Source: an uncultured virus (IMG/VR IMGVR_UViG_3300029448_000007) (Duplodnaviria > Heunggongvirae > Uroviricota > Caudoviricetes > Crassvirales). Taken from it: 64,000 nt of DNA. Positions within the stretch are counted from its first letter, which is position 1; every line of letters begins with the position of its first letter. The translations under genes were made by a program, and so were the position numbers. Below the pieces are notes generated by a model. That model saw only the letters and a program-made list of their open reading frames with translations. It was not told the DNA's origin and did not search any database. Positions 1-61,924 of the stretch are shown here, one piece after another. The stretch lies in the IMG/VR virus record IMGVR_UViG_3300029448_000007. One strand, written 5' to 3'.

Positions 1-155
1 ACTTCTCCATACACAGCATAAACACTTCCACCTATCCATTTATCTTCATAGCTACTAAGGTCAGAATATTCAATATTTTTCCCATCAGTTACAAGGTATC
101 CAACACTTTTGTCCTTTGGCATACCCACTTCTTTAATACTTCGCCATTTTATCAT
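1..155 (-). CDS. Partial small protein, DUF551-like N-terminus (MIKWRSIKEVGMPKDKSVGYLVTDG...)
   Basis: Hand-translated from ATG at 155; open to window edge; W-x-S-x-K-E-x-x-x-P start resembles DUF551-type phage proteins. Confidence 0.5.
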   Translation of the reverse strand, partial: MIKWRSIKEVGMPKDKSVGYLVTDGKNIEYSDLSSYEDKWIGGSVYAVYGE

Positions 156-200
156 TTTGTACTTGTTTATTTAAGTTCGTATTCCATCTCTCTTTGGTGT

Positions 201-572
201 TTAGTTTACCTTAATCAACTTGTACTTCTCACCATCAATCTCAACTACCTTACCTTCACAGCCTTTAGGTCTGTTGTCTTCAATTTTCCCATTACAGTTT
301 TCAAAGTAGATTTCATTTCCATTGGAATTGAATTCTCTTTTACACCAATACCCATCAGAGTCTTCAAAGTATATTACATTTCCATTGGAATCGAATTCTT
401 TTTTATACCAATTCCCATCAGAGAATTGATAGTATATTACATTTCCATCGGAATCCAATTCTCTTTTCCACCAATGCCCTTCAGAGTCTTCATAGTAGAT
501 TAGATTTCCATTCTTGTCTTTAATTATAAATGGAAACTCTGTTACGTTTAATTGTTGTGCGATTGTTTTCAT
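201..572 (-). CDS. Repeat protein with YxEDSxGxWxKRExDSNGN units (YD-repeat-like), paralog 1
   Basis: ORF track; about four 22-aa repeats; N- and C-termini near-identical to 569-874. Confidence 0.85.
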   Translation of the reverse strand: MKTIAQQLNVTEFPFIIKDKNGNLIYYEDSEGHWWKRELDSDGNVIYYQFSDGNWYKKEFDSNGNVIYFEDSDGYWCKREFNSNGNEIYFENCNGKIEDNRPKGCEGKVVEIDGEKYKLIKVN

Positions 573-874
573 TCGGATATTAGTTTATATTTTTTACCAT
601 CAATCTCAACTACCTTACCTTCACAACCTTTGGGTCTGTTGTCTCTAATTTGCCCATAAGAGTTTTCATAGTAGATTACATTTTCATTGGAATCTAATTC
701 TCTTTTAACCCAATACCCATCAAAGAATTCAGTGTAGATTTCTTTTCTATTGGAATCGTATTCTCTTTTTCTCCAAAACCCCTGAGAGTCTTCATAGTAG
801 ATTTGATTTCCATTCTTGTCTTTAATTTCAAATGGAAAGTCTTTGATGTTTAATTGTTGTGCTATTGTTTTCAT
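569..874 (-). CDS. Repeat protein, paralog 2 (one 22-aa repeat shorter)
   Basis: ORF track; MKTIAQQLN...KGCEGKVVEIDGxKYKL shared with 201-572; 101 vs 123 aa. Confidence 0.85.
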   Translation of the reverse strand: MKTIAQQLNIKDFPFEIKDKNGNQIYYEDSQGFWRKREYDSNRKEIYTEFFDGYWVKRELDSNENVIYYENSYGQIRDNRPKGCEGKVVEIDGKKYKLISE

Positions 875-885
875 TTTTTTGGTGT

Positions 886-1173
886 TTATCGTTTACTACC
901 TGATTGACTTTTTCTGAATTTCTTCAGAGCGTTCTTTCTGTTCAAAGCTGATACATAGTAATAACCTTCTTCGATTATCACCTTCTTCGGAATCGTTTTG
1001 TCTACATTGTAAGCACTTGAATACTTAGCCAAGCTAACTTCTTCTGTTTCTAAATCAACTTTGTACAGAGTGTGTCCTTTGTGTGGGACTATCGTGCCTA
1101 AAAAAGTTTTTTCCTTGCGTTGGTCTTTTTCGGCTTGTTGTTCTATGACAACCTTTGGTTCAAGCTCGTTCAT
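886..1173 (-). CDS. Hypothetical phage protein
   Basis: ORF starts at the ATG of a junction repeat and ends at the next repeat. Confidence 0.8.
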   Translation of the reverse strand: MNELEPKVVIEQQAEKDQRKEKTFLGTIVPHKGHTLYKVDLETEEVSLAKYSSAYNVDKTIPKKVIIEEGYYYVSALNRKNALKKFRKSQSGSKR

Positions 1174-1195
1174 CTCTATTTGGTGTTAGTTGGTG

Positions 1196-1498
1196 TTAGG
1201 CTTCATTGCCTTGAATTTTGTTTTTTATCCAATGACCCATTTCTTCACAGTAAGTTTCTACGGCATCACTTCTTTTGCAATCTTCATCATCTCTAAAAAC
1301 GTAAGAGAAATCAAATGCTTTTTGCTTAATTTCTTCATCAGTAGGCAACGAAAGCCTAACATCAGCTATATTGTATTGCTCGGCATACTTCTTCAATAAG
1401 TCTTTTAGCTTGTATTTAGCTGAGTAATCACCTTCAATAATTGTTTGGGGATGTATTCCCATCTCAGCTAAAAATAGTTCTTCTTTTACTTTAATCAT
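1196..1498 (-). CDS. Hypothetical two-module protein with IADVRLSLP linker
   Basis: ORF bounded by junction repeats; internal inverted box 1344-1360 matches 1195-1210. Confidence 0.8.
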   Translation of the reverse strand: MIKVKEELFLAEMGIHPQTIIEGDYSAKYKLKDLLKKYAEQYNIADVRLSLPTDEEIKQKAFDFSYVFRDDEDCKRSDAVETYCEEMGHWIKNKIQGNEA

Positions 1499-1510
1499 CT
1501 CTCTTTGGTG

Positions 1511-1666
1511 TTAAAGGTCAATTGATTGAATTATTTTTACTGAAAAGATGGTAAACATTATAATAGTAAACCAAAATATTTCTTTGTTAGAAAAAGCTAA
1601 AACACCACCAAAAGTTGGCGGGTCGTTAGGGTCTTCTTTTAGCCATTCAAAAAACTTTTTCATCAT
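1511..1666 (-). CDS. Small membrane protein (MMKKFFEWLKED...FWFTIIMFTIFSVKII)
   Basis: Likely start is the ATG at 1666 just after the repeat; C-terminal hydrophobic helix. Confidence 0.6.
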   Translation of the reverse strand: MMKKFFEWLKEDPNDPPTFGGVLAFSNKEIFWFTIIMFTIFSVKIIQSIDL

Positions 1667-1689
1667 TTTTTTCTCATCTCTCTTTGGTG

Positions 1690-1998
1690 TTAACGGTAAT
1701 TGTCTAAGTACCATTTCCAATGTCCTGCTTTCCATATCGCGGGGTTGTTTTTTTCTTTATTTAGTGTTGGTGGAAAAGAGCTCTCTGCTAAGTGGTACAA
1801 CTTATTTACGTGGTTTTTATGTACACAGTACCATATATCCGCACTTTCCAACTGTTCAATAGATAAACTACCTCTCTCTTTGGTGTTTGGTTTACCTCCC
1901 CAAGCTTTGATAACTGCATCTCTTGTAGGTGATGGCCTCAATCTATTCCACCTATCTATCCAATGTTGCTTTTCTTCTTTAGTCATCTTCGGTTTCAT
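1690..1998 (-). CDS. Hypothetical protein, apparent fusion of two cassettes through an internal junction repeat (PNTKERGS)
   Basis: ORF track; repeat copy at 1871-1887 lies in frame with its ATGA replaced by AGGT. Confidence 0.75.
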   Translation of the reverse strand: MKPKMTKEEKQHWIDRWNRLRPSPTRDAVIKAWGGKPNTKERGSLSIEQLESADIWYCVHKNHVNKLYHLAESSFPPTLNKEKNNPAIWKAGHWKWYLDNYR

Positions 1999-2006
1999 TT
2001 TGCAAA

Positions 2007-2186
2007 TTATATATAGAGTGCAGCCGTAGTTGAAATACTAACTAAGAACCTTAAAAGTATTTTTGGGATTACTTTATTGTCAATATCACTATTGTAATAG
2101 GATATAATCAAATTACCTAATAAAAAAGACGATTGAAATAACCAGAAAGCTGTAATGATTGGGTGTAATACTTCTATGAGTTTCAT
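2007..2186 (-). CDS. 59-aa two-helix membrane protein (MKLIEVLHPIITAFWLFQSS...)
   Basis: Hand-translated; starts at repeat ATG 2186, TAA at 2007-2009; below ORF-track cutoff. Confidence 0.7.
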   Translation of the reverse strand: MKLIEVLHPIITAFWLFQSSFLLGNLIISYYNSDIDNKVIPKILLRFLVSISTTAALYI

Positions 2187-2208
2187 CTCTCTTTGGTGTT
2201 AAAGGGTG

Positions 2209-2499
2209 TTAGCGGTAATGCCTATTACCGTTTTCTTTTATGAATTTATGGTAGTCTTGCTCTAACTCTGCAAGTTCTTCTATGTGGTCTCCACTCGGTG
2301 TATTCTCCCAAATATCCTCAACTAATTTGCATCGGTTACTCCAATAATCTGCTTCCGCACTACCGCTAACATCAGGTATAGAGCAGTTTTTTACTGCTGT
2401 TTCTAACTCTGTAATATACCTTAGTACACTTATTGGAGTGTGCAGGTAATCTTCTTCTGCGTTAGCCTTCCAATAGTTTAAATCTTCTTTGTCTTTCAT
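2209..2499 (-). CDS. Hypothetical two-module protein with CSIPDVSGS linker
   Basis: ORF bounded by repeats; internal inverted box 2357-2370 matches 2208-2221. Confidence 0.8.
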   Translation of the reverse strand: MKDKEDLNYWKANAEEDYLHTPISVLRYITELETAVKNCSIPDVSGSAEADYWSNRCKLVEDIWENTPSGDHIEELAELEQDYHKFIKENGNRHYR

Positions 2500-2522
2500 C
2501 TCTCTTTGGTGTTTGTTATCCG

Positions 2523-2651
2523 TTATGCAAAATGCAGGAAAGGCTTCGTCTGCTCCCAGATTTTCTCTTTGCTTTTTCGATTGTTTACAGTGCGAACCTG
2601 TTATCTTCGATAATCACAGACCTTATTACTAAGTAAACCTGCATAATTCAT
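2523..2651 (-). pseudogene. Decayed cassette gene (MNYAG...RR*QVR...FLHFA*)
   Basis: Frame from repeat ATG 2651 to TAA 2523-2525 is broken by an in-frame TAA at 2601-2603. Confidence 0.4.
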
Positions 2652-2784
2652 ATCTCTTTGGTGTTAAGGGTTAAGTGTCAGCAATCAGAGCAAATACCAA
2701 AATTTCTACAAGATTCTTTGTCTTCTTTATTAGGACATTCATGAAATAGAAAATGTTTGCTTTGCACTTTTGAAGCTTAATCAT

Positions 2785-2994
2785 TCATAAGTTCTTCCTT
2801 ATGGTCAAGAAGAGCATAAGTTCTTCCTTATGGTCAAGAAGAGCATTCAAATCTTTGTACTCAAGAATATCTAAAGCATCATAAAACTCTTTAAATCCTC
2901 CTGCATTCTTTACACTGACAATTCTATACTTATCATTTATCTTGACTAACAAATGATATAAGTAGTCTGTCTCTGCTTTAGCAATTATATGCAT
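2785..2994 (-). CDS. Hypothetical protein, C-terminus altered by 29-bp duplication
   Basis: ORF track. Confidence 0.6.
   Translation of the reverse strand: MHIIAKAETDYLYHLLVKINDKYRIVSVKNAGGFKEFYDALDILEYKDLNALLDHKEELMLFLTIRKNL
2786..2846. repeat. Perfect 29-bp tandem duplication (CATAAGTTCTTCCTTATGGTCAAGAAGAG x2)
   Basis: Direct reading: 2786-2814 and 2815-2843. Confidence 0.95.
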
Positions 2995-3004
2995 CTTGTA
3001 AAAT

Positions 3005-3178
3005 TTAGATGAAATATACTAAAGCTACACCAATTATCATAATGATTAATGAGATGGTATTGTCATAACCTTTTTTGGTATCTGTACCAAAATCAATCAT
3101 CTCATAAATCAGTCTAATACATGACATAATAATTATTATTATGCCAAAGTATTCGAGTATTGCTTTCTGTGTATCCAT
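3005..3178 (-). CDS. 57-aa two-helix membrane protein (MDTQKAILEYFGIIIIIMSC...)
   Basis: Hand-translated; two hydrophobic segments. Confidence 0.65.
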   Translation of the reverse strand: MDTQKAILEYFGIIIIIMSCIRLIYEMIDFGTDTKKGYDNTISLIIMIIGVALVYFI

Positions 3179-3262
3179 AGCTTTAATTAAAAAAAGATAA
3201 GCTGGCAGTGTATCTTGTGATGCTTACCAGCTATCCTTATAGGTTAGTTAACCCTTAAACTC

Positions 3263-3511
3263 TCAAGAATTTGTCCAAGAAATAAACCGTACTTCAGTAC
3301 TATCACTCTCGTGATGGAACTTATTGTGGTTTACCTTGTAGTTGAACTTTTCTTTTAACAGACGAATGGTTCTATTGTCAAGATGTTTCTCAACGCGAAG
3401 CATAGTAAAACCTTCACCATGTCGCTTTGCGATATCTTTTTCAATAGCATCGATCTCTTTTTTAACAGAGGCTACTTTTAAAGCAGCCTCGTTAGCACCA
3501 GTTCTCTCCAT
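3263..3511 (-). CDS. Hypothetical protein
   Basis: ORF track; TAATG coupling to upstream gene. Confidence 0.75.
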   Translation of the reverse strand: MERTGANEAALKVASVKKEIDAIEKDIAKRHGEGFTMLRVEKHLDNRTIRLLKEKFNYKVNHNKFHHESDSTEVRFISWTNS

Positions 3512-4065
3512 TACGCTGTAAGCTCACGAGATTGAACAGTAGCATCAGCAAGAAGCTCTTGCTTGATATCGCTCTCGTTGTACTCAGTCATAGAGATCTC
3601 AGACCTTGTACCCTTAGTCATGTCAACAATCTCTTCAGCATGCTCATCGTTGAAAGAAAGCAAAGTATTTCTGAAGATTGGCTTGTTGTCAATCATAATC
3701 ACCATATCGTCTCCGTCTTGTACTGGACGAGCCTTAGGTGTCTGCAACTGCATCTCACCATCAGAACCTACCCAACTTCTTGGAGTATGTGATTCTTGAA
3801 CAACAATGTCCATTGTCTCAACACCAAACTGATCTGCAGTAAGCTCAAGACCATCCTCAGGGATAACTTGGTCAAGACCATACTCAGAAATGTTTGCACG
3901 GTTCATAGGAACCCATGCAAGTCTGCGGTTCTTTGATACATTGGGATGTCCTTTCATAAGAATTCCAATGGAAGTCTTTTGAGGAACCTCTTGCATAAGA
4001 GTTAGACGAACAACTTCTGGGTTTCTTGTGTCTGTAATTTCGAGAAGTTTTACTGGATTTTCCAT
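3511..4065 (-). CDS. Conserved-looking crAss-like protein, possible ssDNA-binding protein
   Basis: 184 aa, beta-rich, DNKPIFRNT motif, acidic C-terminal part; function is a guess. Confidence 0.45.
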   Translation of the reverse strand: MENPVKLLEITDTRNPEVVRLTLMQEVPQKTSIGILMKGHPNVSKNRRLAWVPMNRANISEYGLDQVIPEDGLELTADQFGVETMDIVVQESHTPRSWVGSDGEMQLQTPKARPVQDGDDMVIMIDNKPIFRNTLLSFNDEHAEEIVDMTKGTRSEISMTEYNESDIKQELLADATVQSRELTA

Positions 4066-4231
4066 AGTTTTTGTTTTTGGTATTTAGAATAACCTTTCTT
4101 CGTTTAAGACATTCATATCGTGGTCATCTGGAAGGTGCCATGCCCTGAATGTTTTATCATCACAATAGAACTTGCTATTGACGATAACTATGTAAAAGAT
4201 GCCAAATTTGACTATCTTAAACTTTGTTGGG

Positions 4232-4546
4232 TCATCCTTTCCGCTTTTGTTCTTTGTTTTTAAGCGGAGTTCTTTCAAAAGTTGTCTCAACATACTTAGA
4301 TGTTTTAATGAACTTGGTGAATTCGTCAAAGCTCTCTTGAATAACTCTGCCTTTGGCATTCCAAGAGGATTCTTTTTCGTTCTTCACCATAAACATGAAG
4401 ATGTCACAAATTTCTTCGTGGTCATCCTCATTAAAACCCATATTGTCTAGGTATTTACGAATACCATAAACTTTAGAATTTTTTGTTTCAAACATGTTCA
4501 GTGCTTTTAACATTAACTTGTTGCTCAACGTACATTCTGTTGGCAT
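4232..4546 (-). CDS. Hypothetical protein
   Basis: ORF track; start uncertain (overlaps 4488-4733). Confidence 0.6.
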   Translation of the reverse strand: MPTECTLSNKLMLKALNMFETKNSKVYGIRKYLDNMGFNEDDHEEICDIFMFMVKNEKESSWNAKGRVIQESFDEFTKFIKTSKYVETTFERTPLKNKEQKRKG

Positions 4547-4733
4547 AGTCCATATGCCTGAACAGATAATCTCTGAGTTCTTTCTTCACATGTGGATGTG
4601 CATTTTTTAAGGTGGATATTAGGCTACTCACAAATTCATCGTCAGTCCTAAGACTTTTCCATGCATCTTTAAGATCAGATTCTTCTAATTCACTGATGCG
4701 ATTCTTAATTGTTCCTTTGATAGCGGTGTTCAT
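4488..4733 (-). CDS. Hypothetical protein
   Basis: ORF track. Confidence 0.7.
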   Translation of the reverse strand: MNTAIKGTIKNRISELEESDLKDAWKSLRTDDEFVSSLISTLKNAHPHVKKELRDYLFRHMDYANRMYVEQQVNVKSTEHV

Positions 4734-4748
4734 GTTACTTAAATTTAG

Positions 4749-4824
4749 TTGCGGTTGAGGAATCGAACCTCGGAGGAGAAGCTATCTCAAACGGCTCATG
4801 AGACCGTCTCTGACCAACACCGCA
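4749..4824 (-). tRNA. Aberrant tRNA-like element, anticodon CAT, no D-arm, long variable arm
   Basis: TGCGGT/ACCGCA acceptor, ACGGT-CTCATGA-GCCGT anticodon arm, GAGA-TAGCT-TCTC variable hairpin, GAGG-TTCGATT-CCTC T-arm; only ~10 nt where the D-arm should be. Confidence 0.7.
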
Positions 4825-4892
4825 TTTAAAAAATCAAAGTTTACTTAATTCCCGTGTTTGTTCTGATTTGAAAATTCCCACAATACCATTAC

Positions 4893-5138
4893 TTAGTACT
4901 TGTATACATCGTTACCATTCTTATGGATTGCTCCATTCCCCTTGTACTTCAAACCTCCATCTTCATCTTCATACCACTCATCATCAAATGCTTCTCGAAT
5001 GACAGTACATAAAGATTTCCATGATGAGTCATCAGAAATTTCATTAAACTCCTCTAGTAATAGATTCTCACTTGAAGCTTCTACTATAAAATACGTCCCA
5101 GACGGGTACAATCCCTTTCTACACAGATACTTTTTCAT
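4893..5138 (-). CDS. Hypothetical acidic protein
   Basis: ORF track. Confidence 0.7.
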   Translation of the reverse strand: MKKYLCRKGLYPSGTYFIVEASSENLLLEEFNEISDDSSWKSLCTVIREAFDDEWYEDEDGGLKYKGNGAIHKNGNDVYKY

Positions 5139-5186
5139 GTTTCTTTCTTTTTTTTATTAACTGTTTATCTTCAAGCAAAGATTTAG

Positions 5187-5260
5187 TACACTCGATAGGA
5201 TTCGAACCTATGACCGTCTGCTTAGAAGGCAGATGCTCTATCCAACTGAGCTACGAGTGT
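5187..5260 (-). tRNA. trnR: tRNA-Arg (anticodon TCT)
   Basis: Perfect cloverleaf: ACACTCG/CGAGTGT, GCTC/GAGC, TCTGC-CTTCTAA-GCAGA, ATAGG-TTCGAAT-CCTAT; CCA not encoded. Confidence 0.97.
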
Positions 5261-5267
5261 GGTAATC

Positions 5268-5549
5268 TTAAATTATTTCAGCGTCATTGAAATCTTGATA
5301 GTCAACAAGATTACCGTTAATTGAATAAATTATTCCAGTGAATTTGATTTGACAATCTATGTTCACTGCAGAACAAAAGGCAGCTATTGCTTGTAACGAT
5401 TCGTTACTTACATTTTCACCACCATCAGCTTCAAGACACATGAAACTAAGGTGATTAATAGTGAAGCCTATTCTTAAGACAAAAGTAATGAGCATCATTT
5501 TTTTTTCATCCGTTAAAGTCCACGGACTTTTGAATTCAATCTTGACCAT
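5268..5549 (-). CDS. Hypothetical protein
   Basis: ORF track; preceded by a junction-repeat variant. Confidence 0.7.
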   Translation of the reverse strand: MVKIEFKSPWTLTDEKKMMLITFVLRIGFTINHLSFMCLEADGGENVSNESLQAIAAFCSAVNIDCQIKFTGIIYSINGNLVDYQDFNDAEII

Positions 5550-5574
5550 TTTCTTGGTGTTAAAGGTTAGTAAA

Positions 5575-5960
5575 AAAACCTGGCTCCACTCGGGTTGATC
5601 TTGTGGTAACTTTATAAGTCAGATAGCACCAGGTTTATAAGTATTGGGTAACAAGCATTGCTTCATAACTTGTTACTTACAGCTTATTCGGGTCAAATAA
5701 GCGTGTCAGGTTGTTGTACCCTACTCTACGGACTCTATGCTGCGATTGTATTCGGCAACTCTGTTTTCAGCAAAGGTGTTAACCCGTAAGTGATTTTATC
5801 ACACTAGCTCTAGAAACTAGGAGCATTGCCTTTATTCTCAAATCGTCCCGTATACGAAATAAGGTTTATAGCAATATTATTCAAATGTATCGAGAATGTA
5901 TAAGACTATCAAACACACTATGCCTAAGCACATTGCAAAAAAGTCTTTAATACGTTCTCT
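5575..5960 (+). ncRNA. Candidate large structured non-coding RNA (or ssDNA structure)
   Basis: No ORF >=60 aa; at least eight stems; G-T pairs favour the + strand. Confidence 0.5.
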
Positions 5961-5965
5961 AACAC

Positions 5966-6286
5966 TTAACATCTTTTTGAGATATTATAGCCTTGGTCTT
6001 CTAGAAACTTAAAGCTATATCCTAACTGTAACTCACGAGCAGCACTAACTAATTCATAGATAGTTCTGTTGCGAGGACGAGTATGAAACCTATATGTACC
6101 GCGTGATACTTTACTAACAAGATTTCTGTCTTGTAGAATCGTAAGCATACAATACCTGTAAGGTAACTGATTTACATTGAAAGACTCTCTCGATCTTGAT
6201 AAGTCTTTCACTTTTATGAAACTGCAGTTCATGGTAGATTGATTTATGTGGTAAGGCCAGCCATTACAGCTGACCCCATCCACCAA
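5966..6286 (-). CDS. Hypothetical protein, possible winged-helix (LVSKVSRGTYRF)
   Basis: ORF track; start uncertain. Confidence 0.5.
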   Translation of the reverse strand: MVDGVSCNGWPYHINQSTMNCSFIKVKDLSRSRESFNVNQLPYRYCMLTILQDRNLVSKVSRGTYRFHTRPRNRTIYELVSAARELQLGYSFKFLEDQGYNISKRC

Positions 6287-6685
6287 TTAGTAAAATCTTA
6301 TTTCAATGACATCACCGTTTTTCTTTGTGAGCTTGACCTTGTTCATTCCACTTTTGAATCGGCTATGTGTCATCTTTTCAAGACTTGCATCATCTCTAAA
6401 CCCAAAGGTTACCCTATCACTTACAGGGCTATCAGGTTCTAGGTTAGAAGGTTCTACCCTATTGACATGACCACCAAGTTCGAAGAAGATACCACCATTG
6501 GTATCTATCTCAAACATGATGAGAGTCGTTTGGTACATTGAACCTTTCTCGCTCCAATAGTACATATCACCACAGGTGGTACCATTGACTGTCACATAGC
6601 CACGATAGTGGTCTGTGCGATAGATTTCATCTGAATGCTTGGTGCACGAAGCAAGTGCTACAAGAAATATAAGTAACTTTCTCAT
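6287..6685 (-). CDS. Predicted lipoprotein
   Basis: MRKLLIFLVALAS-C: basic N-terminus, hydrophobic core, lipobox LASC. Confidence 0.8.
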   Translation of the reverse strand: MRKLLIFLVALASCTKHSDEIYRTDHYRGYVTVNGTTCGDMYYWSEKGSMYQTTLIMFEIDTNGGIFFELGGHVNRVEPSNLEPDSPVSDRVTFGFRDDASLEKMTHSRFKSGMNKVKLTKKNGDVIEIRFY

Positions 6686-7071
6686 AGCACTTTGAAAATA
6701 CCGTCATCTTCAAGTTCAAGAAGATAAAAAGATAACTCTTCATCCAACTCTTTCATAGAAGAATACACATCAGTGTTTTCATCAGAGCATTGTTTCATCT
6801 GCTCCAAAGAAAACTCTGTGTTTTGACGACTCTTCTTCTCTATCACATGTACTTTGTCAACTAAACCATCATTATTAATCTCTTCGAGAAGAGTAATGTA
6901 ATGAATTAGGTTCTTATCTACAAAGTAACCAGCAATAGAACTTCTGAGTTTATTACTTTCGTGAAGAGCTCTAAGCTTAATAAGCTTTTTATACTCTTTG
7001 TTATCCCAGACATCTGAGTTAAGTTCGCATTTAAGATCAAACATTCTTTTTTCAATCTCTGAATATGTCAT
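6682..7071 (-). CDS. Hypothetical protein
   Basis: ORF track; ATGA overlap with next gene. Confidence 0.75.
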   Translation of the reverse strand: MTYSEIEKRMFDLKCELNSDVWDNKEYKKLIKLRALHESNKLRSSIAGYFVDKNLIHYITLLEEINNDGLVDKVHVIEKKSRQNTEFSLEQMKQCSDENTDVYSSMKELDEELSFYLLELEDDGIFKVL

Positions 7072-7191
7072 GTGACTTGGTGATTAATTTTAGGTGGGTT
7101 TTGATTAATTCCATGGGTACTATAGTATAGAAGAAAAGAAGAAGAAGTCATTTAATTTTAGTTGATTACGCTATGTATTTATCATAAAAAG

Positions 7192-7219
7192 AAAAAAAGG
7201 GAGCCTGTGAAGACTCCCT
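7192..7219 (-). terminator. Intrinsic terminator
   Basis: AGGGAGTCT-TCAC-AGGCTCCCT followed by a T run on the minus strand. Confidence 0.85.
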
Positions 7220-7232
7220 AAAAGGTGGGTGG

Positions 7233-7466
7233 TTAGATAGGACGTAACGTCTTACCCACAAGTTCGAGCTTTTGCCCCATTTCATCGAGGTTGAGCTCAT
7301 CTCCAACCTTCAACGGCTTGTTGTACTTGAACCACCCGACGATTCCGAAGCCATTGGTGTTGAAGATGTCAATGCCGTAGACATTGGGGTCTTTGTCGGT
7401 TATTGCTACGATGGTAACGGTACCCTCGACAATAGGGTTTTTCGGAGTTTGATTTCCGTCTTGCAT
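7233..7466 (-). CDS. Small early protein (MQDGNQTPK...)
   Basis: ATG 7466 chosen because it sits ~27 nt below the conserved upstream motif. Confidence 0.75.
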   Translation of the reverse strand: MQDGNQTPKNPIVEGTVTIVAITDKDPNVYGIDIFNTNGFGIVGWFKYNKPLKVGDELNLDEMGQKLELVGKTLRPI

Positions 7467-7493
7467 GAGATAAAGTTTAATAGTTCTCGAACC

Positions 7494-7524
7494 CAAGATT
7501 GCGTTCGGTTGGATTTTAGTCCAT
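7494..7524 (-). promoter_or_regulatory. Conserved early motif, copy 3 (ATGGACTAAAATC-N11-AATCTTG)
   Basis: Same motif and spacing at 7882-7912 and 8212-8242. Confidence 0.75.
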
Positions 7525-7528
7525 TAGA

Positions 7529-7560
7529 AGTAGTGAGCCCGACTACTGCCGAGCTCTACT
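7529..7560 (-). terminator. GC-rich hairpin after 7570-7857
   Basis: GAGCTCGGC-AGTA-GTCGGGCTC with extended AGTA/TACT pairing; weak U-tract. Confidence 0.55.
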
Positions 7561-7569
7561 ATTGGGTTG

Positions 7570-7857
7570 CTACATGTCAAGGTACGTATGTTCATCGTCT
7601 GACATATCTTCGAGGTCTTCGAGTTGCTGAACACCCTCTTCGAGAAGCCTCTTACCAACCTTGCTTCTACGGGCTTCTCTACACGCCAAGTCTTCGAGGT
7701 GCATTTTGTAAGTCCTTTTAGCAATTGGGTCGTTTTCGACGTTACCGAAGATATTGGCTTTAACGGTAAACCTTTCTCTGTTGGGTTTCTCCCAAGTCAT
7801 AGTATACCAACCGTGTGCATCCGAAGAGGTTTGCGAAATAAATTTGTTTTGAGCCAT
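7570..7857 (-). CDS. Small early protein (MAQNKFISQ...), acidic C-terminus
   Basis: ATG 7857 lies ~24 nt below the conserved motif. Confidence 0.75.
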   Translation of the reverse strand: MAQNKFISQTSSDAHGWYTMTWEKPNRERFTVKANIFGNVENDPIAKRTYKMHLEDLACREARRSKVGKRLLEEGVQQLEDLEDMSDDEHTYLDM

Positions 7858-7881
7858 GATTAATGGTTTAAGGTTCGGAAT

Positions 7882-7912
7882 CAAGATTGTGTTGGGTTAG
7901 ATTTTAGTACAT
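7882..7912 (-). promoter_or_regulatory. Conserved early motif, copy 2 (ATGTACTAAAATC-N11-AATCTTG)
   Basis: Direct alignment of three copies. Confidence 0.75.
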
Positions 7913-7916
7913 AGGT

Positions 7917-7952
7917 AAAAATAGGGAGCCTCCCGTTAAGGAGACCCCCTAT
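7917..7952 (-). terminator. Intrinsic terminator
   Basis: ATAGGGGGTCTCC-TTAACG-GGAGGCTCCCTAT-TTTT; G-U pairs fit the minus strand. Confidence 0.75.
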
Positions 7953-7957
7953 ATGCT

Positions 7958-8185
7958 TTAGAATAAATCTTCTGTCAGATGGTCCATGAGACCAACGGTT
8001 CCAAGAAAACCACCAACTGTAAACAGGAAGGTTACAATTTGCATGTTTTCTATTACCTCCATGAAAGGGAATGAACCAAAGCTTGCCAACCAAGTGATGC
8101 CGACGGCAATCATAGGAAGTGAGGCAATCAATGTCCAAACAAACAGAAAGACAACAGCTAAACGGAGTGCTTTTTTCACACGCAT
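7958..8185 (-). CDS. Small early membrane protein
   Basis: ORF track; two hydrophobic segments; ~26 nt below the conserved motif. Confidence 0.8.
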   Translation of the reverse strand: MRVKKALRLAVVFLFVWTLIASLPMIAVGITWLASFGSFPFMEVIENMQIVTFLFTVGGFLGTVGLMDHLTEDLF

Positions 8186-9227: not shown

Positions 9228-9536
9228 ATGGATAAAGCATTACGTTACAATGAGGGTAAACCAAGGTGGTCTCTCGTTGATTTCAAATCCTTAGAAGGGA
9301 TGGTAAGAGTATTAGAGTTTGGCGCACAGAAATATGATAAAGACAATTGGAAGAAAGGTGAGCACACATCTAAGATATGTGAATCACTACTTCGTCATCT
9401 GTTTGCACACATGTCAGGTAAACGTATTGATGAGGAATCTGGACTTTCCCACATTGATCATGTCGCTTGTAATGTAATGTTCTTGTCTTATATGACTAAT
9501 CAAAAACCTGAATTCGATGACATCCCAAAAAAATAA
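9228..9536 (+). CDS. dATP/dGTP diphosphohydrolase-domain protein (DUF5664-like)
   Basis: RYNEGKPRWSL, VLEFGAQKY..NWKKG, SLLRHL, DEESGLSHIDHVACN motifs. Confidence 0.9.
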   Translation: MDKALRYNEGKPRWSLVDFKSLEGMVRVLEFGAQKYDKDNWKKGEHTSKICESLLRHLFAHMSGKRIDEESGLSHIDHVACNVMFLSYMTNQKPEFDDIPKK

Positions 9537-9693: not shown

Positions 9694-9859
9694 AATAGTT
9701 ACAAAGTACAACGACTACGAAAAGATGGTCAAAGGATTTCTTCGTTCAGAGAAAATCCTAAAAGAAAAGTACAACAACTACTCTATGAGAATGGAGTTTG
9801 AAAAAGAAACCAACCGTTCGTTTGTAATAATCGAATTTAATAATGGAAAACAAAAGTAA
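9671..9859 (+). CDS. Hypothetical protein
   Basis: ORF track; start uncertain. Confidence 0.55.
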   Translation: MKGLAKDRIVTKYNDYEKMVKGFLRSEKILKEKYNNYSMRMEFEKETNRSFVIIEFNNGKQK

Positions 9860-10511
9860 GCGTCTATTGAAATCACTTCCTTTAAATAAAAATATCGAGT
9901 TAGATGAAGAGCAGCGTGATGCTTTTGAGGTAATTACAAACTCTAAGCTTACTGTTCTTAACGGACTCGCTGGAACTTCTAAAACATTTACTGCTTGTTA
10001 CGCAGCTTTACATAAATTCTTCAAAAGAGAAGTAGATAGGATTACCATTATGCGTCCTATGGTAGGCACAGAAGAGTCAAAGACTGGAATCTTGCCAGGA
10101 ACCATAGAAGAAAAGATGGAGCCTTGGCTACTTCCCGTTTTAGAAAATATGTATTTGATAGGTGGTAAGCAGACAGTACAAAAGATGTACTCTGAAGGAA
10201 AGATTCGTGCACTTCCTTTGAACTTTGCACAAGGAAACACATTTGTTGATGAGTTTGTAATTGTAGATGAATCACAGAACTGTACAAAGCAACAAGTTAC
10301 TATGATCATCACAAGGCTTGGGCTTAGATCTTCTATGGTATTTACGGGAGACCCCAATCAAATACAGTTGAAAGCTAAGTCACACTCTGGTTTACAAAGG
10401 TTGATGGATATAAACAACAAGGTACCATCAATGGATGTGTTTACTCTTACTAAAAACTATCGCGACCCGATAGTCAGAGAAATACTTGAGGCCTATGAAA
10501 AAGACAGTTAA
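9843..10511 (+). CDS. phoH: PhoH-family ATPase
   Basis: GLAGTSKT Walker A, RP, G.LPG..EEKMEPW, IVDESQN, TRLG, GDPNQ. Confidence 0.95.
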   Translation: MENKSKRLLKSLPLNKNIELDEEQRDAFEVITNSKLTVLNGLAGTSKTFTACYAALHKFFKREVDRITIMRPMVGTEESKTGILPGTIEEKMEPWLLPVLENMYLIGGKQTVQKMYSEGKIRALPLNFAQGNTFVDEFVIVDESQNCTKQQVTMIITRLGLRSSMVFTGDPNQIQLKAKSHSGLQRLMDINNKVPSMDVFTLTKNYRDPIVREILEAYEKDS

Positions 10512-47271: not shown

Positions 47272-50094
47272 ATGGCTGTAGTTAATAGATTTTCACAGAG
47301 GCGGAATTACGCTACGTTTAATCCTATGTCTATGCAGGAGCTTATGGTAGTTCCTCAGTATAGACAGCAACAACACGATTATGCAGAAGCGTTAGCCGAA
47401 GCTCAAAAGACAGAAGGTACTGTTTTATCTCCAGATAAAGAAAAGTTTGCACAAGGCGCTAATGAGATAAATAAAGGTATTACAACTTTAGTAGATGACC
47501 TTACTGAAAAAGGTTTACAGTCTAATACTCTTTCTAATGTCCGCAGTCTTAAAAAGAAAAGAGAAGATTTCTTAGATCCTACTACTGGTTTTGGAGGAAG
47601 AGCTCTTGCTAACTATGCACTTTATCAACAAGGTGTTAAGGATATGGAAGAGATGCGTAAGACAGGTGATTATCTAGAAAGAGATCTTACTAACTCTATG
47701 ATACTATCTCTTAATAGATATGAAGGTGTTGATGCTGGTGATACTTTTGACATGTATAATCCATCTCGATATGTAGATATGGGAAAAAAGACTCTTGAGA
47801 TTTTAGATAAAGTTCCCATTCAAGAAATAGAAACTGCTTTAGGATTGCAAGAAATTGGATTTGATCCTCAAACAGGAAATAAAATTTATCAGCATGGTTC
47901 TACAGTAATTAAAGAGCGTTCTAAAGAACATCAAATGTTGGTTGCTCAACAGTTCTTAAATAACGATCCTGAAGTTCAAGCTTATCTAAACGACCAAGCA
48001 ACATTTGCTCAAGAACTCCATTCAACTATTGAAGAAGAGTCTGGAAGTATTATTTATGGGGATAAATATTTTAACCCTTCTACATTTAAAGATCAGTTTA
48101 TTCAAGGTAAGATTTTGAATATTGCTACAATGGGTGCTGAAGCTACAGATGTTCGAAATGTTTCACAAGATTTAGATTATAAGTTTGTCAAAGCTTCAGA
48201 AGCTTATGCTAGAGCTTGGAGAGAAGCTCATATGCCAGATTCTAAGTCTACAACAACTGGTGGTATGGATGAAAATAAAAGCTTAGGTGATGTTAACTAC
48301 CTTGATGATCTTGCACAAAATCCAAAATATACATTAGTAGGTAAAGATCAAAGTGAAGAATTTACTACTACTAAAAAAGGAAAGTATCCTTCAGGTCTAT
48401 CTAGAAAACAATTTTTAGAATATCAAAAACAAATAGGTGAAAAGCCATATACAGAATATAGTGGTTTAAACACTGGTAGATTTGCATATGAAAGATATTG
48501 GTTTGAAGACCATTTTCCAAATCTTTCAGACCCTGGTTATGAAGTAGGTGACCAAACAGAAACGGAAAAATTAGTTGTTAGAAATCAAGGTGCTGAAACT
48601 TTACAAGATTTTAGAAATATATGGAAAAGAAAAACAAAAGATACTGAATACGAAAATTGGCCTGAACAAGCTGTAGATAAGTTATATGAACATATGACTA
48701 GTAGAGATGGTCTTTTACTTGATAGTGAAGATGGATTAGGAACAGCGCGTCCTGTAAGAGAAGCTTTAGGTAAACCTAGTACTGAGTTTATGGCTTTTGG
48801 ATTTGGTTCAGAAGGTGATATTACTACAGAATCTGTTACAAGAGCAATAGATAATACTGCAGAAGCTGTTACAAAAGGAGTTTCTTCAATAGGAGGTACT
48901 AGTGTAGGAGGATTGGTAAGTGGTGCAATATTACGAACCGATTTAACTATTGCTTCTGATTCAGATAAAAGTATGTTCAAATATCATATGAGTGGTAAGG
49001 ATATTCAAAATATCTTAGGTCTTAAAGCTCAAAGAATGAGTGAAGAAGATTTTAATGCTCATACATTAATGAATAATCAAATGGTTAGACAAAACTTTGA
49101 AGCATTTCAAGTAAGTCATCCTAATGTTAGTTTTGAAGATTGGAAAGAATTAGAAGAAACTAGATTGAAAAATAGTGGTCAAGTTGAAACAATATTAGAA
49201 GGTAAGCAAAACATTCCATCAAGTAATACCACTATAAATAATATGTTGGATACTAAATCGCTTAGTGGTTTAACTGGATATGATATTTCAATTGAAAGAT
49301 TCACTGACAGTCGTATGGAAGATATTGCTACTACTGGTGGACAATTTATTGACGCTCTTAAAGATATTGGTGAAATTGAAAGTATTAGTTACCCTTTGAG
49401 AATTCGTGAAGATGGTGATTACACTAAAATTGGAGGTTATCAATTTAATGTAACAAATAAAGACGGTACTATCTTTAGAATAAAAACACAACCTTTGGTA
49501 AAAGAAGAGGCTTCTGTTCTTGTTCCTTTACAAAGATTAGGGCAAGCTTGGAATAACTCAACAGGTGTACAACTTCCTTCAACTGTAGGTCAAGATAATG
49601 TAATACGAAGTGAACAAATGGTTGTTGGAGAAAAAGGTAAGAATGGATGGGTAGGTACAGATGGTGCTTATATGTTGGATATTAATAGATTGATGGAAAC
49701 TGGTTTTATAAATGAAAATATTATTTCAAGAGGTAGTGTTATAGAAGCTGATTATTCTCCTTTTAATACTTATGGTAGAGGAGGAGATTTCCAAAATAGA
49801 GGTATTAAAAAATATTATATTATAGACCCTAACGGTGTAAAGAAACCATTAATTGATCCAACTCTTTATGATCAAACTCTTATGACGGATGATTATAAAA
49901 GACAACAAGTTGAAGCTGGTAACCTTAAACAAGAAGATTTAGTAAACGAAGAAGGTCTTAATGTTTTAAGAAGTTTGATGATGAATAGAAAAGATTTCCA
50001 TCGATATATAGAACAAAAATCAAATCTTGATTTGATTCAACAAACTATATACTCACCAGCTATTGATCAACGTAAAATAAATCCTCAGCAATAA
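47272..50094 (+). CDS. Ejected cargo protein 2
   Basis: 940 aa; NRF...FNPMSMQEL start; synteny. Confidence 0.7.
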   Translation: MAVVNRFSQRRNYATFNPMSMQELMVVPQYRQQQHDYAEALAEAQKTEGTVLSPDKEKFAQGANEINKGITTLVDDLTEKGLQSNTLSNVRSLKKKREDFLDPTTGFGGRALANYALYQQGVKDMEEMRKTGDYLERDLTNSMILSLNRYEGVDAGDTFDMYNPSRYVDMGKKTLEILDKVPIQEIETALGLQEIGFDPQTGNKIYQHGSTVIKERSKEHQMLVAQQFLNNDPEVQAYLNDQATFAQELHSTIEEESGSIIYGDKYFNPSTFKDQFIQGKILNIATMGAEATDVRNVSQDLDYKFVKASEAYARAWREAHMPDSKSTTTGGMDENKSLGDVNYLDDLAQNPKYTLVGKDQSEEFTTTKKGKYPSGLSRKQFLEYQKQIGEKPYTEYSGLNTGRFAYERYWFEDHFPNLSDPGYEVGDQTETEKLVVRNQGAETLQDFRNIWKRKTKDTEYENWPEQAVDKLYEHMTSRDGLLLDSEDGLGTARPVREALGKPSTEFMAFGFGSEGDITTESVTRAIDNTAEAVTKGVSSIGGTSVGGLVSGAILRTDLTIASDSDKSMFKYHMSGKDIQNILGLKAQRMSEEDFNAHTLMNNQMVRQNFEAFQVSHPNVSFEDWKELEETRLKNSGQVETILEGKQNIPSSNTTINNMLDTKSLSGLTGYDISIERFTDSRMEDIATTGGQFIDALKDIGEIESISYPLRIREDGDYTKIGGYQFNVTNKDGTIFRIKTQPLVKEEASVLVPLQRLGQAWNNSTGVQLPSTVGQDNVIRSEQMVVGEKGKNGWVGTDGAYMLDINRLMETGFINENIISRGSVIEADYSPFNTYGRGGDFQNRGIKKYYIIDPNGVKKPLIDPTLYDQTLMTDDYKRQQVEAGNLKQEDLVNEEGLNVLRSLMMNRKDFHRYIEQKSNLDLIQQTIYSPAIDQRKINPQQ

Positions 50095-61906: not shown

Positions 61907-61924
61907 AATTAGTAAATTTACAAA

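What the first reader, a model, noticed from the sequence alone, without database searches (positions are those of the whole stretch)
1195..2647. attC-like inverted core boxes bracket the C-terminal halves of cassette genes
Seen: GTTAGGCTTCATTGCC (1195-1210) is mirrored by GGCAACGAAAGCCTAAC (1344-1360; one gap, one mismatch); GTTAGCGGTAATGC (2208-2221) by GCACTACCGCTAAC (2357-2370; 13/14). Each pair is cassette-specific, yet both TAAC boxes continue as ATCAG(C/G)TATA. A weaker third pair is GTTATGCA (2522) / TGCATAAT (2640), and a lone GTTAACGGTAAT is at 1689. On the coding strand one box supplies the stop codon (GNEA*, RHYR*, DNYR*, HFA*) and the other an in-frame linker (IADVRLS, IPDVSGS). 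Known: an integron cassette starts with GTTRRRY complementary to the RYYYAAC of its own attC. Inference: ~150-bp integron-like cassettes are read antisense and fused in frame to N-terminal modules, giving combinatorial protein-domain shuffling.
Basis: partly seen in the sequence, partly recalled or inferred. Interest (0 to 1): 0.85.

Follow-up and report, generated by a model that had tools for sequence, protein, structure and literature searches.

The report
Stem-closed in-frame gene cassettes in phages
Two small genes of an uncultured marine crAss-like phage are each built from a head piece and a swappable tail piece whose DNA ends pair with each other, and related phages mix these pieces freely at one fixed codon, which looks like an undescribed way of shuffling protein parts.

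Summary
Both inverted repeats are at the stated coordinates. Each joins the codon after a fixed Val (GTT) to the 3' end of the same gene (..CTAAC).

The window alone is weak evidence: 3 such repeats against 0.98 expected, and 18 of 200 shuffles reach 3. Related sequences settle it.

- Homologs swap partners exactly at the Val. One protein joins the head of gene 2209-2499 to the tail of gene 1196-1498.
- Of 42 tails behind one conserved head, chosen without regard to repeats, 34 pair with their own 3' end at score 8 or more, against 329 of 1708 mismatched pairs.
- The arm sequences differ between cassettes but stay complementary. Only T-GTT...AAC-G/A is constant.
- Three cassette comparisons lose identity 0-1 nt after AAC.

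It is not an integron. The polarity is reversed, no attC follows the AAC word, and the window holds no integrase.

Best reading: start-codon-less coding cassettes, each closed by its own stem, dock in frame behind head modules and move as units. The exchange mechanism is inferred, not shown. I found no description in print.

The parts
1196..1498 (-). Gene 1, 100 aa. It is a head module (1361-1498, ..YAEQYNIAD) plus Val plus a cassette.
   Evidence: ORF. Two-way partner exchange.
1195..1360 (-). Cassette 1, 166 nt, sense GTT..AAC. It encodes VRLSLPTDEE..QGNEA*. The left arm is 1344-1360 and the right arm is 1195-1210, which includes the stop codon.
   Evidence: IR I5. The stem appears in the MFE and centroid folds, z -3.01. 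The same cassette with 2 nt differences sits behind an unrelated head in L001.
2209..2499 (-). Gene 2, 96 aa. It is a head module (2371-2499, the 'PISVLRYI' helical hairpin ending ..VKNCSIPD) plus Val plus a cassette.
   Evidence: ORF. 276 relatives at E<=0.01, and in 101 of the 120 listed the match ends at query residues 44-53. The AF2 model has two helical hairpins with a non-helical linker at 39-44.
2208..2370 (-). Cassette 2, 163 nt. It encodes VSGSAEADYW..NRHYR*. The left arm is 2357-2370 and the right arm is 2208-2221.
   Evidence: IR I8. Fold z -3.07. The cassette is found behind 4 other heads (P0002, P0003/4, P0005, P0006). One contig of run X2 matches both flanks but not 2213-2367 (weak).
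1690..1998 (-). Fused gene, 102 aa. Its C-terminal half (about 1689-1872, GSLSIEQ..DNYR*) is a third cassette. In the window that cassette sits behind a read-through copy of the intergenic motif (1875-1887) instead of a Val linker. Its right arm is the 'lone' GTTAACGGTAAT word at 1689-1704.
   Evidence: Internal motif copy. A contig of run X9 joins this half to a short head through ..IPDV-S (table 5c; side 28, weak).
2520..2652 (-).
   Evidence: IR I21, 15 nt, 80%. No ORF of 20 aa or more on the minus strand. Not established.
189..2665 (-). Array of small genes. Each is preceded on the sense strand by AACACCAAAGAGAGATG (+ strand TCTCTTTGGTGTT). Exact copies lie at 189, 1500, 1679, 1875, 2188, 2501 and 2653; one copy with 1 mismatch lies at 1175.
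   Evidence: 15 matches in the window against 3.10 expected, and 0 of 100 shuffles reach 15. The motif is present in more than 123 viral contigs.

Best explanation
SHOWN.

Genes 1196-1498 and 2209-2499 are each a head module fused in frame to a self-contained coding cassette. A cassette has no start codon. It begins at an invariant Val codon GTT, always preceded by T. It carries its own stop codon and ends at AAC, followed by G or A. Its first 8-17 nt are complementary to its last 8-17 nt. The arm sequence is specific to each cassette family. The right arm may include the stop codon or lie up to about 20 nt behind it, so the pairing is a nucleic-acid feature and not a by-product of coding.

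Heads and cassettes occur in many combinations in uncultured marine phages. In some phages most neighbouring small genes are a short leader plus Val plus a stem-closed body.

INFERRED.

The stem and the two short constant words define the unit that moves. On a single strand, the stem brings both junctions of a cassette together. That strand could be a replication or recombination intermediate of the sense strand, or the transcript. Exchange between co-infecting phages then happens at the stem base. The likely routes are template switching or short-word recombination carried out by the phage's general recombination functions. A relative, phi14:2, is annotated with a Sak4-like annealing protein, a RusA-like resolvase and an exonuclease. 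An integron integrase is not involved.

The result is combinatorial head-by-cargo variation in small genes of unknown function. Their small size, their variability and their place apart from the structural block suggest early or host-interaction genes. That is a guess.
For: Partner exchange.
- L001 carries cassette 1 with 2 nt differences behind an unrelated head, followed by a further cassette.
- P0009 is the head of gene 2 plus cassette 1.
- Cassette 2 sits behind 4 other heads. Cassette 1 sits behind at least 8.
- The head of gene 1 carries at least 15 different tails. These include the same VGQSEQL.. and ..RRELL.. families seen behind the head of gene 2.
- V44 is the only invariant column in alignment A3.

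Pairing and covariation.
- 42 tails were chosen only by the conserved head end. Own-arm score 8 or more: 34 of 42, against 329 of 1708 permuted pairs. Score 10 or more: 17 of 42 against 30 of 1708. Score 12 or more: 8 of 42 against 0 of 1708.
- Arm families include GTTAGCGG/CCGCTAAC, GTTGTAGG/CCTACAAC, GTTATAGG/CCTATAAC, GTTATGCC/GGCATAAC, GTTGTAAAA/TTTTACAAC and GTTGGGCG/CGTCCCAAC.
- Position -1 is T in 41 of 42 tails without being forced.
- The right arm lies behind the stop codon in many cassettes.

Single-strand signature.
- Non-Watson-Crick positions are G.U on the sense strand 24 times and A.C 8 times.
- Stem position 11 is G.U in 13 of 21 cassettes.

Breakpoints.
- L012 and L013 are identical up to GCTAACG and unrelated after it.
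- L012 and L127 have unrelated heads, a cassette 96% identical, and identity ending at GCTAAC.
- L122 and L130 lose identity at CTACAAC.
- In the fourth comparison, window against L001, identity ends 4 nt before the AAC end.

Specificity.
- Whole genes behind the intergenic motif are not closed by 5'-3' stems (own mean 5.77 against 5.63).
- Only 3 of 80 such genes have an internal arm.
Against: - No enzyme was found, and no intermediate (circle, excised form or empty docking site) was seen.
- The left breakpoint is not always at GTT. In L127 and P0002 the shared piece starts about 24-27 nt upstream, inside the conserved ..VKNCSIP coding stretch. That fits ordinary recombination in conserved flanks.
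- The four breakpoint comparisons are few. One of them (window against L001) ends 4 nt before the AAC end.
- The G.U excess rests largely on one stem position. There the right-arm base is a synonymous third codon position in an AT-rich genome, so it proves neither an RNA role nor a role in recombination.
- The window alone is not significant.
- The loci were fetched with these very genes and motifs, so the frequencies are not population estimates.
- The read evidence is from short assembled contigs with joint sides of 30 or less, at 90% likeness.
Confidence: 0.5

Rival explanations
1. The stem is only an mRNA structure, for example for stability, control of translation, or processing of the cargo part. 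Cassettes move by ordinary homologous or illegitimate recombination in the conserved head end and intergenic DNA. Under this reading the stem plays no part in the exchange. Breakpoints look sharp only because conservation ends there and because transfers that lose an arm are selected against.
For: - G.U outnumbers A.C on the sense strand.
- The stem is the dominant predicted RNA fold.
- The left breakpoint lies inside the conserved VKNCSIP coding stretch in L127 and P0002.
- Conserved flanks exist in the 'group X' arrays: left nTATACCTGAT, right GGTTTGG...
- No recombinase was found.
- Direct-repeat motifs between the genes behave like T4 PeSLs (PMC2839356, abstract read).
Against: - Three comparisons lose identity 0-1 nt after AAC although the right flanks are unrelated, at 15-40% identity over 40 nt. 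There is no flank homology to recombine in.
- Heads of at least four unrelated families all join at one GTT codon.
- No known RNA family matches.
- I know of no RNA function that needs a stem around 70-630 nt of coding sequence.
Confidence: 0.3
2. The cassettes are selfish palindromic mini-elements, like MITEs or the Rickettsia palindromic elements. They insert in frame at the ends of genes and are moved by a transposase encoded elsewhere.
For: - Terminal inverted repeats bracket units of about 100-300 nt and form in-frame fusions.
- In L001 a further unit sits exactly in front of the TAAC of the previous one, like a target-site insertion.
- RPEs of about 150 bp insert in frame into ORFs (PMC10969869, passages read).
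Against: - Copies do not share a family consensus. Bodies are unrelated, and the arms share only GTT/AAC.
- No target-site duplication was seen.
- The units always carry the stop codon and look like folded domains.
- No transposase in the window.
Confidence: 0.08
3. They are true integron cassettes, with attC sites recombined by an IntI integrase of the host or the phage.
For: - GTT and AAC are constant while the rest of the arms is cassette-specific, and the structure is conserved rather than the sequence.
- The cassettes lack their own start signals.
- attC sites are recognised as folded single strands (PMC6393395, passages read).
Against: - The polarity is GTT..AAC around the ORF.
- No GTTRRRY and no hairpin partner lies within 200 nt behind the AAC word.
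- Identity between arrays ends at AAC.
- An outer helix and spacer resembling R box and UCS is not supported (own 5.84 against permuted 5.95).
- No integrase in the window.
- The better-pairing strand is the sense strand, whereas attC uses the bottom strand.
Confidence: 0.03
4. The inverted repeats are sites of a DNA invertase, as in a shufflon or the Gin/Cin systems, which flips the tail segment to switch C-termini.
For: Inverted repeats flank a C-terminal coding segment.
Against: - The flipped segments give no sensible ORF. Cassette 2 would add about 10 residues, and cassette 1 would add a 35-residue low-complexity tail (read).
- The arms differ between cassettes, so no shared recombination site exists.
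- No invertase was found.
- None of the 15 listed joints (of 18) in four runs changes strand.
Confidence: 0.02

Closest known systems
Integron gene cassettes with attC sites
   Same: Units without their own expression signals dock at a platform. The site is conserved in structure rather than in sequence, and only GTT and AAC are constant. One strand pairs better than the other. The result is a combinatorial stock of cassettes. attC features are from PMC6393395 (passages read); the R-box consensus is as quoted in the finding.
   Different: - Here the stem encloses the coding body (GTT..AAC) instead of following it (AAC..GTT).
- There are no L boxes, no spacer and no extrahelical bases.
- No integrase was found.
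- Docking is in frame inside an ORF, so protein parts are joined rather than whole genes.
- Units end at AAC.
PeSL-mediated modular shuffling in T4-type phages (PMC2839356, abstract read; PMC4122927, search listing only)
   Same: Hyperplastic arrays of small phage genes are separated by a repeated regulatory motif. Recombination between the motif copies adds, removes and swaps genes. The window's 18-nt motif behaves this way.
   Different: PeSLs swap whole ORFs between direct repeats. They do not explain the in-frame junction at one codon or the cassette-specific inverted arms.
Rickettsia palindromic elements and in-frame MITEs (PMC10969869, passages read)
   Same: Palindromic units of about 150 bp add peptide segments to proteins in frame.
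   Different: RPE copies share a family sequence and insert inside unrelated genes. Here the bodies are unrelated to one another, the units are always C-terminal with their own stop codon, and they join behind a few head families at a fixed Val.
   Same: A constant N-terminal part, a short demarcating peptide motif, and hypervariable C-terminal domains exchanged by recombination at the motif.
   Different: The scale is about 100 aa in all. There are no immunity genes, no toxin domains were recognised, and a nucleic-acid stem closes each variable part.
   Same: A short conserved N-terminal leader is followed by variable cargo in polymorphic phage loci.
   Different: No evidence here for packaging or for cleavage at the Val, and the stems are not a feature of that system.

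Membership tests
Integron cassette / attC | attC site: an imperfect palindrome with AAC..GTT polarity (R''-L''..L'-R') lying behind the ORF | tested here: not met
   No GTTRRRY and no own-core partner at 0 mismatches within 200 nt behind either AAC word. The ssDNA folds of that stretch are weak, -9.6 and -5.6 kcal/mol. The repeat found has GTT..AAC polarity around the ORF.
Integron cassette / attC | Integron integrase (tyrosine recombinase) at the platform | tested here: not met
   No recombinase among the 17 + 33 window ORFs scanned against Pfam, nor among the 21 ORFs scanned against PHROGs, most of them the same ones. The rest of the genome is not held, so this covers the window only.
Integron cassette / attC | Structure conserved, sequence variable, with constant GTT and AAC triplets | tested here: met
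   Positions 1-3 are G-C, T-A, T-A in 21 of 21 cassettes, and positions 4-8 use 2-3 different pair types. Positions 1-6 are paired by the selection of that subset. The unselected test is.
Integron cassette / attC | Second binding box, unpaired central spacer, extrahelical bases | tested here: not met
   An outer helix beyond a 5-nt spacer was tested: own flanks 5.84 against permuted 5.95 paired bases. Extrahelical bases were not analysed.
Integron cassette / attC | Match to the attC covariance model (IntegronFinder) | not testable with these tools
   The model is not on hand. Rfam gave no match in 1-6000 apart from a tRNA.
Integron cassette / attC | Shared unit between arrays runs to the end of the attC | tested here: not met
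   Identity ends 0-1 nt after AAC in three comparisons and 4 nt before it in a fourth.
MITE / Rickettsia palindromic element | Copies share one family consensus along their whole length | tested here: not met
   71 distinct cassette sequences with unrelated bodies.
MITE / Rickettsia palindromic element | Terminal inverted repeats and in-frame fusion | tested here: met
MITE / Rickettsia palindromic element | Target-site duplication | tested here: inconclusive
   None was seen at the junctions read. In L001 the insertion sits directly in front of a TAAC, which may be a target preference.
Invertible segment (shufflon, Gin/Cin) | One shared recombination site in inverted copies, an invertase gene, and both orientations present | tested here: not met
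   Arms differ between cassettes. No invertase. No strand-changing joint among the 15 listed of 18.
PeSL-type modular shuffling | A repeated motif in direct orientation between small ORFs, with gene gain and loss at the motif | tested here: met
   The motif is enriched. Contigs of 3 studies join motif copies, for example 1518->2182 (joint sides 20-29, so weak).
PeSL-type modular shuffling | The motif is a promoter plus a terminator stem-loop | tested here: inconclusive
   The sigma-70-type scan shows no enrichment (18 found against 19.0 expected). Bacteroidota promoters are not covered by that scan.

The most novel reading that the evidence does not exclude
A cassette system that works on parts of proteins: 'integron logic inside an ORF'. 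Start-codon-less cargo cassettes, each closed by its own stem, would be recognised by structure plus the words T-GTT and AAC-R. An as yet unknown activity, acting at the stem base, would cut and join them in frame behind leader or head modules. This would give marine Bacteroidota phages a combinatorial stock of small host-interaction proteins.
Probability: 0.3. Interest if true: 0.95.

Novelty: new variant of a known kind. Interest (0 to 1): 0.82.

Why it matters
Phage 'hypothetical' small genes are the largest pool of unknown function, and how they diversify is an open question. This finding gives a precise, testable rule: an invariant Val codon, cassette-specific closing stems and sharp unit ends. 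By that rule, unrelated heads and tails are recombined at the level of protein domains across many uncultured marine phages.

If the stem takes part in the exchange, it is a new kind of structured recombination signal and a natural scheme for in-frame cassette exchange. If it acts only in RNA, it is a new class of long-range mRNA structure that brackets coding bodies of 70-630 nt.

Either way the rule helps annotation. It splits these ORFs into modules and predicts which parts are the variable, probably host-facing, cargo.

Tried and rejected
- The nearest held virus record, G001 (35 kb), has neither the region nor the motif. The window's own assembly is not held.
- The single metagenome scan used too loose a pattern. 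Only 3 of 120 loci were true relatives by the first filter. A looser parse recovered more.
- Pfam, PHROGs, PDB sequences and the protein Atlas give no function for either gene. The best Atlas score was 0.88, which is a lead only.
- Neither protein has a match in 50,697 deposited phage records.
- The first 50 kb of Cellulophaga phage phi14:2 hold no such cassette: 0 found, mirror control 0.
- Only 4 loci were found in 185,579 species genomes, all but one in MAG contigs.
- An outer helix (TATAC/GTATA) with a 5-nt spacer, which would have mimicked an attC, was tested and not supported.
- Closure of whole genes by 5'-3' stems was not supported.
- A search for 'empty' docking sites gave only chance hits of the pattern.
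- A -1 frameshift reading was considered: A_AAA_AAC lies at 2386-2392, and the -1 frame stops at the TGA inside the linker. I dropped it as a general explanation because other heads lack a slippery site.
- tRNA-like or RNase P mimicry (U-1, G1-C, purine, then ACCA in the window) was considered. I dropped it because the ACCA belongs to the general intergenic motif and is absent in the other phage group.
- Splicing, retron, DGR and CRISPR-repeat mimicry were considered from recall only and not pursued. No catalytic core, reverse transcriptase or template repeat was seen.
- Reads: parts of 1570-1837 and 2709-2900 had no cover in some runs. Nothing is concluded from that.
- The sigma-70 promoter and terminator scan was uninformative.
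Full report
**Context.** The window is part of an uncultured marine crAss-like phage.
- The major capsid protein matches the Pfam family Crass_capsid at 5e-144. It is 41.5% identical to that of Cellulophaga phage phi14:2.
- Terminase, portal and ring, muzzle and cargo proteins follow on the + strand.
- Bases 1-5600 hold small genes on the minus strand and a tRNA-Arg.
- In 189-2665 each gene is preceded, on its sense strand, by AACACCAAAGAGAGATG. There are 15 matches in the window against 3.10 expected, and 0 of 100 shuffles reach 15. The same 18-mer occurs in more than 123 viral contigs.

**The observation.** Both inverted repeats are real and at the stated places.
- On the sense strand, gene 1196-1498 reads ..AAT ATA GCT GAT GTT AGG CTT TCG TTG CC.. 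and ends ..GGC AAT GAA GCC TAA C.
- Gene 2209-2499 reads ..TCT ATA CCT GAT GTT AGC GGT AGT GC.. and ends ..GC ATT ACC GCT AAC.
- The left arm starts at a Val codon. The right arm holds the stop codon.
- RNA folding puts each long-range stem in the MFE and the centroid structure, with z = -3.0 and -3.1.
- Within the window alone the count of such repeats is not significant: 3 against 0.98 expected, and 18 of 200 shuffles reach 3.
- The third pair is weak and spans no ORF.

**Partner exchange.** They do.
- In locus L001, cassette 1 (VRLSLPTDEE..QGNEA) differs by 2 nt but follows an unrelated head. It is followed by a further cassette that has arms of its own, GTTAGCCACAGTAAG / CTTATTGTGACTAAC.
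- Gene 2 has 276 relatives at E<=0.01. Of the 120 listed, 101 stop matching at residues 44-53, right after ..DV, and go on with very diverse tails. Six cover the tail, and five of these have other heads.
- P0009 is the head of gene 2 joined to the cassette of gene 1.
- Gene 1 shows the same pattern both ways. Its cassette sits behind at least 8 heads. Its head carries at least 15 tails, among them tail families also found behind the head of gene 2.
- Head-only proteins exist (P0155, P0163).
- In alignment A3 the junction Val is the only invariant column.
- An AF2 model of gene 2 has two helical hairpins, at residues 2-38 and 45-94, joined by a non-helical stretch at 39-44. Mean pLDDT is 72 and pTM is 0.30, so the model gives no confident placement of the two halves relative to each other.

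**Do the arms covary?** I took 42 distinct tails that follow the conserved head end ..TCTATACCTnnnGT(T/A), without regard to any repeat; 2 of them are chance hits of the pattern. I scored each tail's start against its own 3' end and against the 3' ends of other tails.

| Score | Own 3' end | Other tails' 3' ends |
|---|---|---|
| 8 or more | 34 of 42 | 329 of 1708 |
| 10 or more | 17 of 42 | 30 of 1708 |
| 12 or more | 8 of 42 | 0 of 1708 |

- The arms fall into families with different sequences that remain complementary. Examples are GTTAGCGG/CCGCTAAC, GTTGTAGG/CCTACAAC, GTTATAGG/CCTATAAC, GTTATGCC/GGCATAAC, GTTGTAAAA/TTTTACAAC, GTTGTACAC/GTGTACAAC and GTTGGGCG/CGTCCCAAC.
- The core is therefore not GTTAG/CTAAC. 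Only GTT..AAC is constant, with T before it (41 of 42, unforced) and G or A after it (20 of 21).
- In many cassettes the right arm lies 8-20 nt behind the stop codon. The pairing therefore does not come from coding.
- Across all fetched loci (0.95 Mb), perfect arms of 9 nt or more that close an in-frame ORF number 44 distinct, against 3 in a mirror control. At 8 nt or more the figures are 71 against 11.
- These units follow many unrelated heads. Often the head is a short leader of 14-25 residues ending ..C.I(P/H)(D/N)V.
- In some arrays (L021, L025, L003, L167, L138) most neighbouring small genes have this build, with spans up to about 630 nt.
- Genes that merely follow the window's intergenic motif are not closed by 5'-3' stems. 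Only 3 of 80 have an internal arm.

**Which strand, and which molecule?**
- Non-Watson-Crick positions inside the arm alignments are G.U on the sense strand 24 times, A.C 8 times and other 12 times.
- Stem position 11 is G.U in 13 of 21 cassettes.
- This points to pairing of the sense strand as a single strand, either RNA or sense ssDNA.
- The caveat is that the U at position 11 is often a synonymous third codon position in an AT-rich genome. The excess is suggestive only.

**Unit ends.** Four independent comparisons bear on where a unit ends.
- L012 and L013 are identical through head and cassette up to GCTAACG and unrelated after it.
- L012 and L127 have unrelated heads. Identity starts at the conserved ..GTAAAAAACTGCTCTATACCT, the codon before GTT differs, the cassette is 96% identical, and identity ends at GCTAAC.
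- L122 and L130 lose identity at CTACAAC.
- Window and L001 lose identity at GAAGCC, just before TAAC.
- So the right end is sharp, but the left end is not always at GTT.

**Population data.** Contigs from three DNA runs and one RNA-library run, from four studies, break at every motif copy and join different motif copies.
- One X2 contig matches both flanks of cassette 2 but not 2213-2367.
- One X9 contig joins the C-terminal half of gene 1690-1998 to a short head through ..IPDV-S. This explains the 'lone' box at 1689 as the right arm of a third cassette. In the window that cassette sits behind a read-through copy of the intergenic motif (1875-1887).
- These joints have sides of 30 or less at 90% likeness, so they are hints only.
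- None of the listed joints changes strand.

**What it is not.**
- It is not a canonical integron. The polarity is reversed. No GTTRRRY partner or hairpin lies behind the AAC word. An attC-like outer box and spacer is not supported. No integrase was found in the window. Units end at AAC.
- It is not a shufflon. The flipped segments encode nothing sensible, the arms are not shared, and no inverted forms were seen.
- It is not a MITE or RPE family, because the bodies are unrelated.
- Rfam has no match.

**How it most likely works.**
- Shown: start-less, stem-closed coding cassettes join behind head modules at one Val codon, in many combinations.
- Inferred: the stem and the words T-GTT and AAC-R define the unit of exchange. 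The stem holds both junctions together on a single strand, and exchange between co-infecting phages happens at its base. The likely routes are template switching or short-word recombination by general phage recombination functions. The relative phi14:2 is annotated with a Sak4-like annealing protein, a RusA-like resolvase and an exonuclease. The replication module of this phage is outside the window.
- The main rival is that the stem acts only in the mRNA and exchange is ordinary recombination in conserved flanks.

**Novelty.**
- I found no description in five full-text searches.
- Neither protein matches any of 50,697 deposited phage records.
- The nearest known systems are integron cassettes, PeSL shuffling in T4-type phages (PMC2839356, abstract read), in-frame palindromic elements of Rickettsia (PMC10969869, passages read) and polymorphic-toxin tail exchange (recalled). 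Each shares some logic with this system, and each fails on a defining feature.
- I file it as a new variant of modular cassette shuffling. There is a real chance (about 0.3) that it is a new, structure-guided system for exchanging protein parts.

Noticed in passing
window 201-572 and 569-874 (-): Two adjacent paralogous small genes (123 and 101 aa). Both are built of a repeated ..YYEDS.G.W.KRE.DSNGN.IY.. unit and share the ending ..RPKGCEGKVVEIDG.KYKLI... No family match.
   Followed up: no
window 2386-2392 (-): A_AAA_AAC heptamer in frame in gene 2, 15 nt before the Val codon. The -1 frame runs into the TGA inside ..CC TGA TG.. of the linker, so a -1 shift would give a head-only product. Other heads lack such a site, so it is not a general feature.
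   Followed up: partly
window about 2786-2851 (+): A tandem duplication of about 33 bp (..ATAAGTTCTTCCTTATGGTCAAGAAGAGC.. twice) at the 3' end of ORF 2785-2994. Seen by eye.
   Followed up: no
window 5186-5260 (-): tRNA-Arg (TCT) between the small-gene blocks. It is the only part of 1-8000 with DNA matches in deposited phages.
   Followed up: no
window 1500-1518 / 2188-2206 and other motif copies: Contigs from runs of three studies, one of them an RNA library, join 1518 to 2177-2184. That skips three genes. Other joints link other motif copies. This suggests whole-gene presence/absence variants at the repeated motif, as with T4 PeSLs. The joint sides are 20-29 nt, so this is weak.
   Followed up: partly
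window 9228-9536 and 9843-10511 (+): A dATP/dGTP diphosphohydrolase N-terminal domain protein and a PhoH-like ATPase lie just upstream of the terminase.
   Followed up: no
window 47272-64000 (+): Four very large ORFs (940, 1711, 2225 and more than 692 aa). The four were scanned against Pfam with no match, and 47272-50094 also against PHROGs with no match. They lie where crAss-like phages carry virion RNA polymerase and cargo proteins.
   Followed up: no
L021 1671-2360: A 229-aa gene whose left arm (GTGTTATCGGC) lies at codon 15-18 and whose right arm (GCCGATAAC) lies at its end. The stem would span about 630 nt, so the enclosed body can be a whole protein and not only a C-terminal half.
   Followed up: partly
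L011, L122, L138, L167, L002: right flanks of cassettes: A conserved intergenic element ..GGGTATGGAGTCGGTTTTTTACGGATTTGAAAC.. follows many cassettes in one phage group. It may hold the terminator and the next promoter. Not analysed.
   Followed up: no
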